Positions 42,137 through 50,835 of a DNA stretch of 64,000 nt are shown here, in pieces (position 1 is the stretch's first letter; every line of letters begins with the position of its first letter). Source of the stretch: the human T2T-CHM13v2.0 reference genome, Homo sapiens; assembly GCF_009914755.1 (NCBI RefSeq), contig NC_060932.1. One strand, written 5' to 3'. The position numbers were made by a program, and so were the translations under genes. The notes beneath the pieces are model-generated. The model had not been told where the DNA came from. It searched no databases and saw nothing but the letters and a program-made list of their open reading frames with translations.

Positions 42137-42378
42137 ACACAGTCAAGGAGAGAATGAAAAAATGACCATTGCATCTGTGTCTGCTGATGGCATAAACATA
42201 ACACTAAGTAACCCACTAAATTACACACACTTAGGAATTACGGTCACACTCCCTGATGGAACTCTGTTTGAAGCAAGAGCAGAAGTTGGAATTCTTACAA
42301 GAAATATTTTAATAAGAGGATCTGATAATGTTGAGTGGAATAACAAAATTCCTGCATGTCCTGATGGATTTGACACAG
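42137..42378 (+). CDS. PKHD1L1: PKHD1L1 coding exon (prov. 47)
   Basis: ttacag|A CAC AGT...ACA G|gtaatt; PLNYTHLG...RAEVGILTRNILIRG; 242 nt. Confidence 0.94.
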
Positions 42379-43022
42379 GTAATTTTAGCAGCTCTCGTGG
42401 TTGGTATAATCATGCCATATAGTTTTACAATTTAATTGGTTTATATTGAAATACATTATTTCAATGTATTTCATTGTAAATATCATTAAATATAATTTAA
42501 TGATATTAATCTTATAAGATACCATTAAATATCTTATAAATATAATTAAATGTGGAAATTTGGAAATGCTGATAGTATTTGTGAGTAACATGAAGATATT
42601 TGAATATATTGAAGAAAAGTGGTTAATGCTGACACTATAATGGGAGAAATAAGTGCACTTGGATTCTGTTGATAAATTATCTTCCTATAATTATGATTCA
42701 TTATTATGTTTAGATTAGACCTTGATGATTAGTTTTAATATTGTCAGCAAGAAACTGCATTATTTATATTTACTCAGAAAATATGGCAAACTATATTTGA
42801 TAGTGATACAAAGATTCTGTTTAGCAAATCCTTGACTGTCAGAGCTTTTTTAATTTTCCAGAATTTGCAGTTTATCAGAACAGTGTGAGAGTGGGTTTAC
42901 TGTAAAAGATATTTTAATTAATTCCTAGACTGATGATGGATAGACAGACAAATGGATAGATGGAATGATGGGGGGAAAATCTATAGATATATAGATCTGA
43001 GCCAGTGGGGGTAGGCTAAGTC

Positions 43023-43236
43023 CGAGTTTTTCAAAGTCAGCTCTGTTGGTATTTTGGCCCAGATAATTCTCTGCTGTGGGGCACTGTCCTGTGCATCACA
43101 AGATGTTTGACAGCACACTTGGCATCTACCAACTAAATTCTAGTAGCCTCCTCTAACAACTGTGACAACCAAAAGTGTTTCCAGACTTTGCAGAAATGTT
43201 CCCTGGGGGCAAAATTGGCCTCAGTTAAGAAACACT
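43023..43236. mobile_element. MER20-like hAT MITE
   Basis: TTTTGGCCCAGATAATTCTCTGCTGTGGG and GTGACAACCAAAAGTGTTTCCAGAC motifs. Confidence 0.75.
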
Positions 43237-44313
43237 GGACTAGGTTATGCTCTATTTACAAACAAGCCCAAAATGTCAGTGATTTAAAATATAAAAGTCT
43301 ATTTCCCATTCATGCTACATGTGTCCCATATGGGTCAACAGGTGGGCTCTTCTCATTATAATTGCCTTGGGATCCAGGCTTATGAAGGATCTATCTCAGC
43401 ACGGGCTTCTGTGATGTCTGAGGCAGGAGATGAGATTACTGGAAAGTAAAGCACTAGCAACTCATTGCTTTGGTCTCAAAGTGACAGGTGTCTCTTATAC
43501 TCAAGGGTCATTGGTCAGAACTGATTCCATGGCTATGCCTAACTTGAAGAGAGTGAGTTAGTGCAAAACCCATATACCCAGAAATAGAAGGGAAATGGAT
43601 ATTGGTGAATTTTAGTGATGTTTATATCACAGTTCTCATATCTATAGCAGGAAGCAGAATGCATCTTACATGTCTCTTTTAAATTTTTTATGTAATCATT
43701 CATATCATTACAATACTATAAGTAGTTGAACAATAACTGATGCAGCTTAAATAATAGTCTTTTCTTCAAAAGGAAGTATAAGACAAAGCCCATGGGATTT
43801 TATGTCAAATGAGCTACGTTCTCATTCCAGTTCATCAGTTCATCTGCGTCAATTATCACAATGTACATGAAACCTAGTTTCATCCATTTAAATTAAGAAT
43901 ACTTCCTGTTCTATTTACTATGGTTGTAAAAAAGTAAGTGACATAATGCATATTCTCATGTTCTACAAATATAAAATTGCATTGATTATGTTAATCCTCA
44001 AATCTTGGGGAAGGCTTCATAAATAATAAAACTAAATCCCATTATCAATATTCCCTTGATCATTCAAATATTTGTTTAGTATCTTCTCTGAAAAATACTG
44101 TATAAGTACTTTAGGGAATACAAAGTTGAACAAGACAAGGTACTTACCTATCTTGCTATCTAAAAGAGGAAATGATGTGAATGCAAATAACTATGTTCTA
44201 GGATGAGGTTGAGATCATATGTGAATCAAATGATACACTTAGTTATGAGAAAATCTTCAATATAAGAGGATTCCGACAATTTTTTTAATGATGCTTTAAA
44301 AACTGTTTTGAAG

Positions 44314-44450
44314 GAGAATTTGCTACACAGACCTGTCTCCAAGGAAAGTTTGGAGAAGAAATAGGAAGTGACCAATTTGGAGGCTGCGTTATGTTTCATG
44401 CTCCTGTACCTGGTGCTAACATGGTAACTGGGAGAATAGAATATGTAGAG
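44314..44450 (+). CDS. PKHD1L1: PKHD1L1 coding exon (prov. 48)
   Basis: ttgaag|GA GAA TTT...GTA GAG|gtgaga; DQFGGCVMFH...GRIEYVE; 137 nt. Confidence 0.92.
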
Positions 44451-45080
44451 GTGAGAGGCATTATTACTAAATCACAGTGGTTTGCTCAAGGTTATCCATA
44501 CAAGAAATGTGTGTTGAACTCCTGCTGTTTGTCAATGCTACTTATAATCTGGTAGGGGAGACAGATACATAAGTAAACAATTTTAATACACCCATTTGAT
44601 CATGCCAAAATTTTGTTTCTCAAATTTTCTCACACCTCGAATCGAATTAATCAGCATTTCTATCTTCTCTACCCACAAAATGCTGTAACCAGAATCCAGT
44701 CTCTTTCCATACCTCCACCTGATCCTGTGCCTGAGCCACTATCTCCTCCCACCTGGACTGCTGTGATTTTCTCCTACCTGGTCTTCCTGCTCCCACGTTG
44801 CTCTAATAGAGTTTCCACACTTCAGTCAAAGTAAAATTTTAAAACCATGTATCAGATCTTGTTACACCCCTCTTCAAAATCCTTCAGTGGCTTCATGGTA
44901 TACGTAAAACAACAGGTCCAAGTCCATCCCATAGGAATCATGTGATCTGACCCAGAGATACCGTCTGATTTATCTCCTACGACCCTATGCCTTGCTCGTG
45001 CCATGCTAGTCATAGAGGACTCCTTATGTGATCATGTCAAGCACATTCCTATCTCAGGTCCTTTGTACTTGCTTTTCATT

Positions 45081-49119: not shown

Positions 49120-49311
49120 GGCACAAAGGACATACCGTCATTCCACACAGCTCATTGCTAGACCCTTCTCATTGTACTCAGGAAGCTGAGTGGAGCATTG
49201 GGTTCCCTGGATCAGTCTGTGATGCTTCAGTCAGCTTTCACCGTTTAGCGTTCAACCAGCCTTCTCCAGTATCTCTGCTTGAAAAGGATGTGGTTCTTTC
49301 AGACTCTTTTG
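49120..49311 (+). CDS. PKHD1L1: PKHD1L1 coding exon (prov. 50)
   Basis: tcccag|GG CAC AAA...TTT G|gtaagt; 192 nt; phase 1-1. Confidence 0.93.
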
Positions 49312-49539
49312 GTAAGTGGAATATATTAGTTTAAACAACTAATTTAAATATATCTTCCTAAACTTTTGTCATCATCTTCTTGCATTGTTACTTGGTTGTT
49401 CAAACATTGCAAAAAGTATAACATTTATATTAGAGTCCAAGCAGGAAACAAATAATACTCTCGAAGTAGGTGTTTGAGAAGCATTTTATAAATGCAGAGG
49501 CTAGCGAAATATTCTGCTGATCAAGAAACCTCCAGACAA

Positions 49540-50109
49540 TATTATGACAGAGAGAGGGAGCGTTGGCACAGCCCTTGGAGCAAGTAAAAATGTACCAGTG
49601 TTCCTGCCACTCAAAGCAAATGTTTTTGATTGTCCTTGCTGATTGAGATGGGATGGGGGAGCATTTACTAGGTTAATAGCTGCCTAACAGGTGCCAGGGA
49701 TTGTGGATTTACTGATTTGTTCCGGTAAAGGTACAATACCTGGAACACCAGATACGCTTGGCATCATTACCTGATTATGTTGCATTAATTTACTGTCATT
49801 GTTCATAATCCATCTGGCATTTGCACCAGCCAAACGAGCAAGCTAACTAAATGGGGATGTGGTGAAAATCCTGAATCTCACGTTTCTTAAATCTTCAATC
49901 ATGGCACTAATCTCTACATTCCGCCCCTGCCCCGCCCCCCTTCCCCCCACTGCCCCGCCCCAACTCAAGGATTTAAACTTGCTTTTATTTGATTAAGGAG
50001 GTGGCAAAATGGTTCCTAGAGTATAGAGTATCCACATAGTTCCTCCTACTATATTTGACCCTACTCCATTAGTTGGGGAACCAGTGTGGGAATTCTTCCA
50101 GTTATTAAG
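49540..50109 (-). mobile_element. Degenerate ERVL pol (RT N-terminus) remnant
   Basis: Minus-strand pieces LNNWKNSHTGS, EISAMIEDL, TTSPF, WLVQMPDG, AAINLVNA, PRAVPTL/QGCANA align by eye to ERVL LSSWQNPHIGS...EISATIKDL...AAIDLANA...PQGYINS. Confidence 0.72.
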
Positions 50110-50130
50110 TCTGCCTAGTCTCACTCTACC

Positions 50131-50835
50131 TGACCTAACCTACCCTGACTGGCTCAGATCTGTATCTCTATCTCTTTATCATTCCATCCATCATCTCTCT
50201 AGAAATTATTAGTTAAAATATCTATTTATAATGAATCCACTCTCACAAAATATACTGTTCTGAGGGACTGCAGATTCTGAAAAATGGAAAAAGCATTGAT
50301 GAATCAAAGATTTGCTAAACAAAATCTTTATATCATCATCAAATATGGTTTTTTACATTTTCTGGGTAAATCTAAATGATGCAGCTTCTTGACAGCAATA
50401 TGGAAAACTGTCATCATCAAGGTCTAAACACATAATAAGGAATCGTAAGTATAGAAAAAGAGTTTAATAACAGAATCCAAGTGCACTTATTTTTTCTCTT
50501 ATAGTGTCAATATTTACCATTTCTCATCAGTATTGCAAATACTTTCATGTTACTTTAAAATGCTATCAATATTGTTGAATTTCCCCCATTTAATGATATT
50601 TACAAAGTAGAGACTTGCCATTTAAAAATTTTAAACGATGTATCTCAATATAAACCAATTAAGATTTGAAAGTGTTTAGCATAATTATACCAGCCACATG
50701 ACAGCTGCTAAAATTACTTATGTCAAATCCATCAGGACATGCTGGAATTTTGTTATTACACTCCATGTTGTCAGCTTCTCTTATTAAGATATTTCTTAGA
50801 AGAATTTCAACTCCTGCCCTCATTTCAAATGGAGC
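50131..50835 (-). repeat. Inverted local duplicate of 42261-43022 (3' half of exon 47 plus start of intron 47)
   Basis: For example TGTCAAATCCATCAGGACATGCTGGAATTTTGTTATT at 50721 is the reverse complement of the exon 47 3' end; AACAGAATCCAAGTGCACTTATTT is the reverse complement of ~42647-42670. Confidence 0.92.

What the first reader, a model, noticed from the sequence alone, without database searches (positions are those of the whole stretch)
42261..50835. The gene carries an antisense copy of its own exon 47 and donor, forming a long inverted repeat around exons 48-50
Seen: 50131-50835 is a reverse-complement copy of 42261-43022. It covers the last 118 nt of exon 47, its donor and ~640 nt of mostly unique intron. 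The exonic part has 22/118 mismatches (~81%) and no indels; the intronic part has some indels. The arms are ~7 kb apart and bracket exons 48+49+50 (137+1030+192 = 1,359 nt = 453 codons, phase 1 at both ends). Established: inverted intronic repeats can promote back-splicing, multi-exon skipping and ADAR editing. Inference: a non-Alu, self-derived duplex could (i) skip the PbH1 beta-helix block in frame, (ii) give a 1,359-nt circRNA with a stop-free circular ORF (junction G|GA = Gly), or (iii) mask the exon 47 donor. Caveats: ~20% divergence and co-transcriptional splicing may prevent pairing.
Basis: partly seen in the sequence, partly recalled or inferred. Interest (0 to 1): 0.8.

Follow-up and report, generated by a model that had tools for sequence, protein, structure and literature searches.

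The report
Old inverted self-copy inside PKHD1L1
An intron of the human PKHD1L1 gene holds an old, backwards copy of the end of an upstream exon and its neighbouring intron; on paper the two copies could pair in the RNA and loop out three exons, but nothing yet shows that the cell uses this.

Summary
Window 42262-43024 (the last 117 nt of the exon at 42137-42378, its GT donor and about 645 nt of intron) recurs reverse-complemented at 50130-50834 in the intron after exon 49120-49311. BLASTN gives E 1e-120, and identity is 80% over 684 aligned columns. The human assembly holds only these two copies, so this is not a transposon family. The copy looks like a neutrally decaying fossil: K2P between the arms is 0.24, differences are spread evenly over codon positions, and the longest exact run is 24 nt. 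It still pairs strongly in silico, with about 575-580 intermolecular bp and a net gain of -422 kcal/mol, against -197 to -227 for the three local inverted Alu pairs. A 40-bp helix with one mismatch covers the donor. I found no evidence of use. The supplied RefSeq table lists no such isoform, and the two published PKHD1L1 circRNAs I found map about 35 kb upstream. No expression, editing or cross-species data were available. Verdict: a real, old intragenic inverted duplication, probably inert or of minor effect, and a clean non-Alu test case. Interest is low to moderate.

The parts
42262..42378 (+).
   Evidence: 81.4-81.7% identical to rc 50718-50834 with no indel. Predicted net duplex gain for the exonic part alone is -102 kcal/mol.
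42379..43024 (+). Arm A, intronic part: GT donor and the first ~645 nt of the following intron
   Evidence: 79.5% identity over 567-570 aligned columns, K2P 0.244 +/- 0.024. Homology stops at the 5' terminus of a MITE-like transposon at 43022.
50130..50834 (-). Arm B: reverse-complement copy of arm A inside the 8,348-nt intron after exon 49120-49311, 819 nt downstream of that exon's donor
   Evidence: On the minus strand it keeps a GT at the copied donor (ATAA|GTAATT) and a 38-codon stop-free remnant with 10 non-synonymous and 5 synonymous codon differences.
42354..42393 (+). Donor-covering helix: pairs with 50703-50742, 39 of 40 bp, with one C.A mismatch at 42376
   Evidence: Helices of 22 bp and 17 bp in the cofold structure. 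Net gain is -54.1 kcal/mol when folded alone.
42642..42671 (+). Longest uninterrupted predicted helix (30 bp including G-U) with 50468-50497
   Evidence: net -40.7 kcal/mol.
44314..49311 (+). Looped-out block: exons 44314-44450, 46758-47787 and 49120-49311 (1,359 nt, phase 1/1). The middle exon encodes a CEMIP-type beta-helix.
   Evidence: The acceptor of the first exon has a poor pyrimidine tract (...AAAAACTGTTTTGAAG|G). The donor of the last is TTG|GTAAGT.
43022..43245 (+). Old MITE-like DNA transposon abutting the inner end of arm A; not part of the duplication
   Evidence: At least 578 first-look candidates genome-wide, 40 of 40 scored matching at 71-78%. Shared termini in 11 fetched copies. 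21.5% from a 13-copy majority.
50857..51099 (+). X1: direct copy of 54961-55217, starting 22 nt beyond the outer end of arm B
   Evidence: Only these two copies exist in the assembly. 88.9% identity over 243 columns, K2P 0.121 +/- 0.024, with sharp ends.

Best explanation
The feature is a fossil of one old DNA-level rearrangement inside PKHD1L1. About 760 nt spanning the end of a coding exon, its donor and the start of the next intron was copied in inverted orientation into an intron 7.1 kb downstream. The likely route was a replication template switch or ectopic repair synthesis, not retroposition or transposition. Since then the copy has drifted neutrally. Because both arms lie on the same pre-mRNA, they remain able to form a long imperfect duplex. 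That duplex would loop out three exons and bury the upstream donor. My reading is that pairing happens, if at all, only in the fraction of transcripts that still hold the 1.9-kb upstream intron when arm B is made about 8 kb later. It would then give at most low-level by-products: some back-splicing of the 1,359-nt block, some in-frame skipping, some A-to-I editing. I do not expect a selected function. Shown here: the repeat, its uniqueness, its neutral decay pattern and its predicted pairing strength. Inferred: the mechanism of origin, the age in years and every RNA-level consequence.
For: Real and unique: E 1e-120 in the window, and only these two copies in the assembly.

Not a retrocopy: the copy contains intron sequence, and neither end has an A-run.

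Neutral decay:
- K2P is 0.217 in the exonic part and 0.244 in the intronic part.
- Exonic differences fall 5/7/9 on codon positions 1/2/3, with 10 non-synonymous and 5 synonymous codon changes of 38.
- Identity is flat along the arms (0.70-0.86 per 50 columns outside the two large indels).
- The longest exact runs are 24 and 22 nt. My own calculation expects about that for 80% identity over ~685 columns, so there is no sign of recent conversion or of preserved blocks.

Pairing capacity:
- duplexfold gives -698.5 kcal/mol, against -202.1 +/- 12.4 for 60 dinucleotide shuffles of arm B.
- It also beats 41 other 705-nt window segments (best -253.6).
- cofold gives a net gain of -422.5 with 580 intermolecular bp. 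The three inverted Alu pairs give -226.8, -205.0 and -197.1.

Geometry fits a loop-out: arm A ends 1,290 nt before the first looped acceptor, and arm B starts 819 nt after the last looped donor.

No sign of use:
- The RefSeq table supplied with the finding (7 transcripts) lists no exon in arm B and no alternative exon near it.
- 0 papers hold 'circPKHD1L1'.
- 0 papers hold the predicted junction coordinate prefixes.
- The two PKHD1L1 circRNAs listed in PMC8232851 (passage read) end at window exon ends 3232 and 9698.
Against: In silico, this is the strongest long-range duplex around these exons. The looped block is bounded by a visibly weak acceptor and a consensus GTAAGT donor. An abstract I read (bioRxiv 10.1101/2025.03.07.642063) associates that combination with inverted-repeat loop-out skipping of single exons, so a measurable effect is quite possible.

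Absence from a RefSeq table and from the main text of searchable papers is weak evidence. PKHD1L1 is expressed in few tissues. circRNA and editing catalogues sit in databases and supplements that I could not open.

A 2009 platelet proteomics paper (PMC2654914, table passage read) lists six in-phase skip-junction peptides in PKHD1L1 between non-consecutive exons. I could not map their exon identifiers to this window.

Neutral-looking divergence in one genome cannot exclude selection on pairing, because compensatory change is visible only across species.

The origin is not settled. Both ends of the copied segment coincide with other landmarks (a transposon terminus; a second local duplication), and I cannot explain this.
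Confidence: 0.62

Rival explanations
1. Working cis-element for circRNA or loop-out skipping. The duplex brings the donor at 49311 and the acceptor at 44314 together. This gives a 1,359-nt circRNA, or in-frame removal of the 453-codon beta-helix block, at levels that matter biologically.
For: The duplex is strong, about twice the net gain of any local inverted Alu pair. The arms lie 1,290 and 819 nt from the relevant splice sites. The block has a weak first acceptor and a consensus last donor. The block is in frame and the circle has 0 stops and 10 in-frame ATGs. I found no inverted repeat inside either flanking intron that would compete by pairing within one intron.
Against: No junction evidence was found (supplied RefSeq table). 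The upstream intron is only 1,935 nt and is transcribed about 8 kb before arm B, so it may usually be spliced first. The Alu at 45.1 kb can pair with Alus at 37.6, 55.8 and 58.2 kb in arrangements that cross the arm duplex. The arms look neutral. Losing the beta-helix from a 4,000-residue extracellular protein has no known use.
Confidence: 0.2
2. Donor-masking or editing element. Pairing of 50703-50742 with 42354-42393 hides the 5' splice site of the upstream exon or draws ADAR to it. This slows that intron's removal or recodes the exon end.
For: A 39/40-bp helix spans CAG|GTAATT, net -54 kcal/mol. The exonic part alone still pairs after the intron is removed (net -102 kcal/mol). Helices of 30, 22 and 22 bp are in the range I recall as sufficient for ADAR (recalled, not tested).
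Against: U1 recognition of the donor is expected to occur as it is transcribed, minutes before arm B exists (established knowledge, not tested here). The loop is 7.1 kb. No editing data were available.
Confidence: 0.08
3. Two members of an interspersed repeat family, a retrocopy, an assembly artefact or a chance match.
For: Both arms are AT-rich (29-31% G+C) and carry a GATA/GATG microsatellite-like stretch that also hits chr4.
Against: Only two copies exist in a 3.1-Gb assembly, whereas the neighbouring MITE gives at least 578 candidates. E is 1e-120. One arm is part of an annotated coding exon kept in frame. Intron sequence is included and there is no poly(A). At 20% divergence the arms are not an assembly duplication.
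Confidence: 0.01
4. Substrate for DNA-level inversion of the 7.1-kb segment by recombination between the arms, or an antisense transcription unit that reuses the copied donor.
For: The orientation is right for inversion. The copied GT donor and an 88-residue open frame survive on the minus strand.
Against: The longest exact identity is 24 nt, far below what I recall homologous recombination needing in mammals (recalled). No antisense gene appears in the supplied annotation. An 88-residue open frame in AT-rich DNA is unremarkable. Pfam gave 0 families for the copy.
Confidence: 0.03

Closest known systems
Inverted Alu pairs flanking circularised or skipped exons (IRAlu-driven back-splicing and loop-out skipping)
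   Same: Complementary sequences sit in the RNA on either side of a set of exons and are predicted to form a stem that loops those exons out. Three such Alu pairs lie in the same region (37.6x45.1, 45.1x55.8 and 45.1x58.2 kb). I read the abstract of bioRxiv 10.1101/2025.03.07.642063.
   Different: This pair is not a transposon. It exists nowhere else in the genome, so it has no other partner to compete with. It is about twice as long, AT-rich, and gives about twice the predicted net energy. One arm includes coding exon sequence and a functional donor.
Mouse Sry inverted repeat and non-repetitive intronic reverse-complementary matches that drive exon circularisation (recalled from the literature, not read here)
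   Same: A locus-specific inverted duplication rather than a dispersed repeat supplies the complementarity.
   Different: In those cases circular RNA has been observed and shown to depend on the repeat. Here no circular product is known. The Sry arms, as I recall, are far longer and nearly identical; these are 0.7 kb and 80% identical.
Intragenic inverted duplications as structural variants (e.g. the CHM and DMD cases, and the replication-based model in bioRxiv 10.1101/2023.09.19.558550; search listings only)
   Same: An inverted copy of part of a gene, including exon sequence, is placed nearby within the same gene. A template switch at the replication fork is the usual explanation.
   Different: Those are recent, large and mostly pathogenic. 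This one is small, fixed in the reference, old (K2P 0.24) and tucked into an intron without disturbing the reading frame.
Conserved long-range intronic base pairings that regulate splicing, such as docking/selector systems and conserved complementary regions in human genes (recalled)
   Same: Pairing between a site at or near a splice site and a distant intronic complement.
   Different: Those are short (about 10-50 nt) and defined by cross-species conservation and covariation. Here conservation could not be tested, and the complement is a decaying duplication rather than an evolved short box.

Membership tests
Inverted-repeat-flanked circRNA locus | Reverse-complementary sequences upstream and downstream of the circularised exons on the same transcript | tested here: met
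   Arms at 42262-43024 and 50130-50834 bracket exons 44314-49311 on the + strand transcript.
Inverted-repeat-flanked circRNA locus | The arms are predicted to pair with each other better than with alternatives or by chance | tested here: met
   duplexfold gives -698.5 against 60 shuffles at -202 +/- 12 and 41 real segments (best -253.6). cofold net gain is -422.5, against -197 to -227 for the three inverted Alu pairs.
Inverted-repeat-flanked circRNA locus | An observed back-splice junction (here 49311->44314) | not testable with these tools
   No RNA-seq or circRNA database was available. Literature: 12 papers hold PKHD1L1 and circRNA. I checked passages in 4 of them. Only one lists PKHD1L1 circRNAs, and both map upstream. 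0 papers hold 'circPKHD1L1'. 0 papers hold the coordinate prefixes.
Loop-out exon skipping by flanking inverted repeats | An observed linear isoform lacking the looped exons (42378->57660) | tested here: inconclusive
   The supplied RefSeq table (7 transcripts) lists no such alternative, and the join would be in frame. The six platelet skip-junction peptides in PMC2654914 could not be mapped.
ADAR substrate (long intramolecular dsRNA) | Long, mostly paired duplex with helices of tens of bp | tested here: met
   62 helices totalling 575 bp, 56 of them G-U. The longest are 30, 22, 22 and 19 bp.
ADAR substrate (long intramolecular dsRNA) | Clusters of A-to-G mismatches in RNA | not testable with these tools
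   No RNA data were available.
Interspersed repeat (transposable element) family | Many dispersed copies in the genome | tested here: not met
   The whole-assembly search found only the two arms plus one 62-nt hit to the GATA/GATG-rich stretch. The adjacent MITE, searched the same way, gave 578-581 candidates.
Processed retrocopy | Intron-less, with a poly(A) tail and target-site duplication | tested here: not met
   The copy carries ~645 nt of intron, and no A-run flanks either end. By contrast, nearby MAPK6P5 has an A-rich tail at 54797-54808.
Template-switch or ectopic-repair inverted duplication | Local template, inverted orientation, sharp junctions, often composite with microhomology | tested here: inconclusive
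   Local and inverted: met. The junctions are sharp. I found no clear microhomology. The adjacent X1 copy looks half as old (K2P 0.121 vs 0.244, each +/- 0.024), which argues against a single composite event.
Known structured RNA family (Rfam) | A match at the gathering score | tested here: not met
   0 matches in 41500-51500 on both strands.

The most novel reading that the evidence does not exclude
A gene regulates itself through an antisense fossil of its own exon. The arm duplex is maintained by selection and, in some PKHD1L1-expressing cell types, switches between the full-length protein, an isoform lacking the 453-residue beta-helix block, and a 1,359-nt circular RNA with an endless open frame. 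This would be a non-transposon, self-derived riboregulatory inverted repeat that includes a functional splice donor in its stem.
Probability: 0.06. Interest if true: 0.65.

Novelty: new member of a known kind. Interest (0 to 1): 0.3.

Why it matters
Almost everything known about inverted-repeat effects on human RNA (circRNA formation, loop-out skipping, ADAR editing, dsRNA sensing) comes from Alu pairs. Alus have thousands of possible partners, so cause and effect are hard to separate. This pair is unique in the genome, long, and predicted to be stronger than its Alu neighbours. It also contains a live splice donor. It is therefore a clean natural test of how much divergence, loop length (7.1 kb) and transcription order a long-range duplex can tolerate. 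PKHD1L1 is a hearing-loss gene (PMC11043200, abstract and passages read). Intronic variants or deletions in either arm, which exome pipelines ignore, would become candidates for altered splicing if the duplex proves active. If it is inert, as I think most likely, it is an ordinary small fixed inverted duplication.

Tried and rejected
- Transposon family: rejected. Only two copies exist genome-wide.
- Retrocopy or 3' transduction from the neighbouring element: rejected. Intron sequence is included, neither end has an A-run, I saw no TTTATT in the displayed plus-strand sequence around 42240-42290, and the left flank of arm B (49927-50129) gave no repeat matches.
- Homology hidden beyond the ends or resuming after the MITE: not found (best E 0.027-0.18).
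- A long target-site duplication of MAPK6P5 as the explanation for X1/X2: rejected. The retrocopy matches its chr15 parent only over 52680-54796 and does not fill the X1-X2 interval.
- Transposase-made break at the MITE end: unlikely. The MITE copy is 21.5% from its family majority, older than the arms at ~12% per lineage.
- Single composite insertion of arm B plus X1: weakened by the two-fold difference in K2P.
- Pfam on the exon-47 peptide and on the copy's peptide: 0 families, even at E 10.
- PDB sequence search with the exon-47 peptide: nothing significant, best E 0.011 on a short repeat motif.
- Protein search of the assembly with the exon-47 peptide: only itself and arm B, no paralogue. 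The argument that arm A is the source therefore rests on its being an in-frame annotated exon.
- Rfam: 0 matches.
- One literature search was badly framed. It did not require the gene name and gave only general reviews.
- I ran no structure prediction, complex prediction or large protein-database search, because they do not bear on the question.

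
Full report
**1. The observation**

The inverted repeat is real.
- The repeat finder on 41500-51500 returned eight collinear inverted blocks running from 42262-42399/50697-50834 to 42983-43022/50132-50171, at 74-85% complementarity.
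- BLASTN of 41800-43600 against the window gave 42267-42960 vs 50829-50167 on the minus strand. This was 73.3% over 712 columns with gaps counted, 14 gap openings, E 1.25e-120. A terminal block, 42983-43022 vs 50171-50132, was 85% identical.
- In global alignments, identity over gap-free columns is 80.0% (684 columns, 89 transitions, 48 transversions).
- The intronic stretch is 79.5% identical. Arm A carries insertions of 45 and 27 nt, and arm B carries seven small ones.
- No similarity continues past either end.
- A search of the whole assembly holding the window found only the query, arm B, and one 62-nt hit on chr4 to a GATA/GATG-rich stretch.

The pair is therefore neither chance nor a dispersed repeat.

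- The three bracketed exons are 137+1030+192 = 1,359 nt.
- They start and end in phase 1.
- The circular native frame has 0 stops and 10 ATG codons, with junction codon G|GA.
- The join 42378->57660 stays open.

I could not verify the exon numbers 47-51. The supplied table gives none, and 42137-42378 is the 26th exon listed in the window.

**2. What it is**

One arm is the 3' end of an annotated, in-frame coding exon, contiguous with its own intron. The other lies antisense in a downstream intron, 819 nt after the donor at 49311. The downstream arm is therefore the copy.

It is not a retrocopy. It contains ~645 nt of intron, and neither end carries an A-run.

It looks neutral.
- K2P is 0.217 in the exon-derived part and 0.244 +/- 0.024 in the intron-derived part.
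- The exon-derived differences fall 5, 7 and 9 on codon positions 1, 2 and 3.
- 10 of the 15 altered codons change the residue.
- Identity is even along the arms.
- The longest exact runs are 24 and 22 nt. My own calculation expects roughly that for 80% identity over this length.

There is thus no trace of recent gene conversion or of specially preserved blocks. Rfam finds nothing, and Pfam finds nothing in the copy's remnant frame.

**3. Relative age**

Three neighbours give an internal scale.
- A MITE-like DNA transposon at 43022-43245 belongs to a family with at least 578 first-look candidates. It has shared termini and 8-bp flanks matching 6 of 8. The window copy is 21.5% from a 13-copy majority, so it is older than the arms, which are about 12% per lineage.
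- The direct pair X1/X2 (50857-51099 and 54961-55217) exists only at this locus. Its K2P is 0.121 +/- 0.024, about half the arms' age.
- MAPK6P5 (52680-54796) is 96% identical to its chr15 parent and is the youngest.

Converting K2P 0.24 into years depends on substitution rates that I recall rather than measured. It gives roughly 55-120 million years, that is, early primate to early placental. No other vertebrate genome was available to check this.

**4. Origin: unresolved details**

The copied segment stops 0-4 nt into the older MITE, and homology does not resume beyond it.

Its other end lies 22 nt from X1. That adjacency suggests a composite templated insertion, as replication template switching produces. 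However, the two-fold difference in divergence (3.6 standard errors by my arithmetic) argues for two events, unless X1 and X2 were later homogenised.

I commit only to a DNA-level inverted duplication by template switch or ectopic repair synthesis. The coincidences are recorded as unexplained (note).

**5. What the RNA could do**

Both arms are transcribed on the same pre-mRNA.
- duplexfold gives -698.5 kcal/mol. Sixty dinucleotide shuffles of arm B give -202.1 +/- 12.4, and 41 other 705-nt window segments give at best -253.6.
- With self-folding allowed, cofold keeps 580 intermolecular base pairs and a net gain of -422.5 kcal/mol. The three inverted Alu pairs in the region give -226.8, -205.0 and -197.1.
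- The structure has 62 helices, the longest 30 bp.
- A 22-bp and a 17-bp helix, separated by one C.A mismatch, cover the donor CAG|GTAATT.
- The loop would hold the three exons. The middle exon encodes a CEMIP-type beta-helix (PF24606, E 1.1e-53).
- The block begins with a poor acceptor and ends with a GTAAGT donor. One abstract I read links that combination to inverted-repeat loop-out skipping of single exons.

Several things still argue against a large effect.
- Arm A is made about 8 kb before arm B.
- The upstream intron is only 1,935 nt, so it may usually be gone, and the donor already used, before arm B exists.
- The Alu at 45.1 kb can form pairings that cross the arm duplex.

These points rest on established knowledge of co-transcriptional splicing, not on a test here.

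**6. Evidence of use**

I found none.
- The supplied RefSeq table (7 transcripts) lists no alternative exon near the arms.
- Of 12 papers that hold both PKHD1L1 and circRNA, I read the relevant passages of four.
- Only PMC8232851 lists PKHD1L1 circRNAs. It lists two, and their ends coincide with window exon ends 3232 and 9698, about 35-40 kb upstream of this block.
- No paper holds 'circPKHD1L1' or the predicted junction coordinate prefixes.
- PMC2654914 lists six in-phase non-consecutive exon-junction peptides for PKHD1L1 in platelets.

These are weak negatives. The relevant data sit in databases and supplements that I could not reach.

**7. Comparison and verdict**

The feature works like, or could work like, inverted Alu pairs and the locus-specific inverted repeats known to drive circularisation.
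- It meets the structural criteria of that kind: flanking complementarity and a predicted stable duplex.
- It fails the criteria for a transposon family or a retrocopy.
- The criteria that define function (an observed junction, dependence on the repeat, editing clusters) could not be tested.

It differs from the Alu cases in four ways: it is unique in the genome, self-derived, about twice as long, and includes a live donor in the stem.

I rate it a new member of a known kind. My split is about 0.6 for an essentially inert fossil with at most low-level by-products, about 0.2 for a measurable circRNA or skipping effect, and about 0.06 for a selected regulatory role. The stop-free circular frame is automatic for any in-frame set of coding exons and adds nothing.

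Noticed in passing
window 50857-51099 and 54961-55217: A direct duplication of otherwise unique sequence. Only these two copies exist in the assembly. Identity is 88.9% over 243 columns, K2P 0.121, with sharp ends and a 14-nt indel. The first copy starts 22 nt from arm B. Before MAPK6P5 inserted, the copies were about 1.7 kb apart.
   Followed up: partly
window 43022-43245 and 41654-41839: Two copies (71% alike) of an old ~220-nt MITE-like DNA transposon flank the exon at 42137-42378 in direct orientation. The family has terminal inverted repeats, and this copy has 8-bp flanks matching 6 of 8. The whole-genome first look gave at least 578 candidates. The family name was not determined because no repeat library was available.
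   Followed up: partly
window 52680-54808: MAPK6P5 is a 5'-truncated retrocopy. It matches one contiguous 2.1-kb stretch of chr15 at 96% and ends in AATAAA plus an A-rich tail. At least five other partial copies lie elsewhere in the genome at 86-92% identity.
   Followed up: partly
window 44289-44316: The acceptor of exon 44314-44450 has an A-rich, pyrimidine-poor tract (AAAAACTGTTTTGAAG|G). The donor at 49311 is a consensus GTAAGT. No splice-site scoring tool was available.
   Followed up: no
window exon ends 3232 and 9698 (starts lie upstream of the window): Two 'novel' PKHD1L1 circRNAs reported as down-regulated in papillary thyroid carcinoma (PMC8232851) end exactly at these exon ends, if window = reported coordinate minus 109,417,458. 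Inverted Alu pairs are plentiful in that part of the window.
   Followed up: partly
window 42479-42507 and 58744-58821: Two local palindromes. One is a 29-nt AT-rich palindrome inside the 45-nt arm-A-specific insertion. The other is an 80-nt, 82% self-complementary stretch in the intron after exon 57660-57811.
   Followed up: no
window 45069-45384 with 37596-37927, 55771-56099 and 58159-58405: The Alu in the intron after exon 44314-44450 is inverted relative to three others. Pairing with 58.2 kb would loop out exons 46758-57811 (1,374 nt, also in frame). Pairing with 55.8 kb would loop out 1,222 nt (out of frame).
   Followed up: partly
PMC2654914 (platelet proteomics): Six in-phase junction peptides between non-consecutive PKHD1L1 exons are listed by old Ensembl exon identifiers. 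None was validated at the RNA level in the passages I read. I could not map them to the window.
   Followed up: partly
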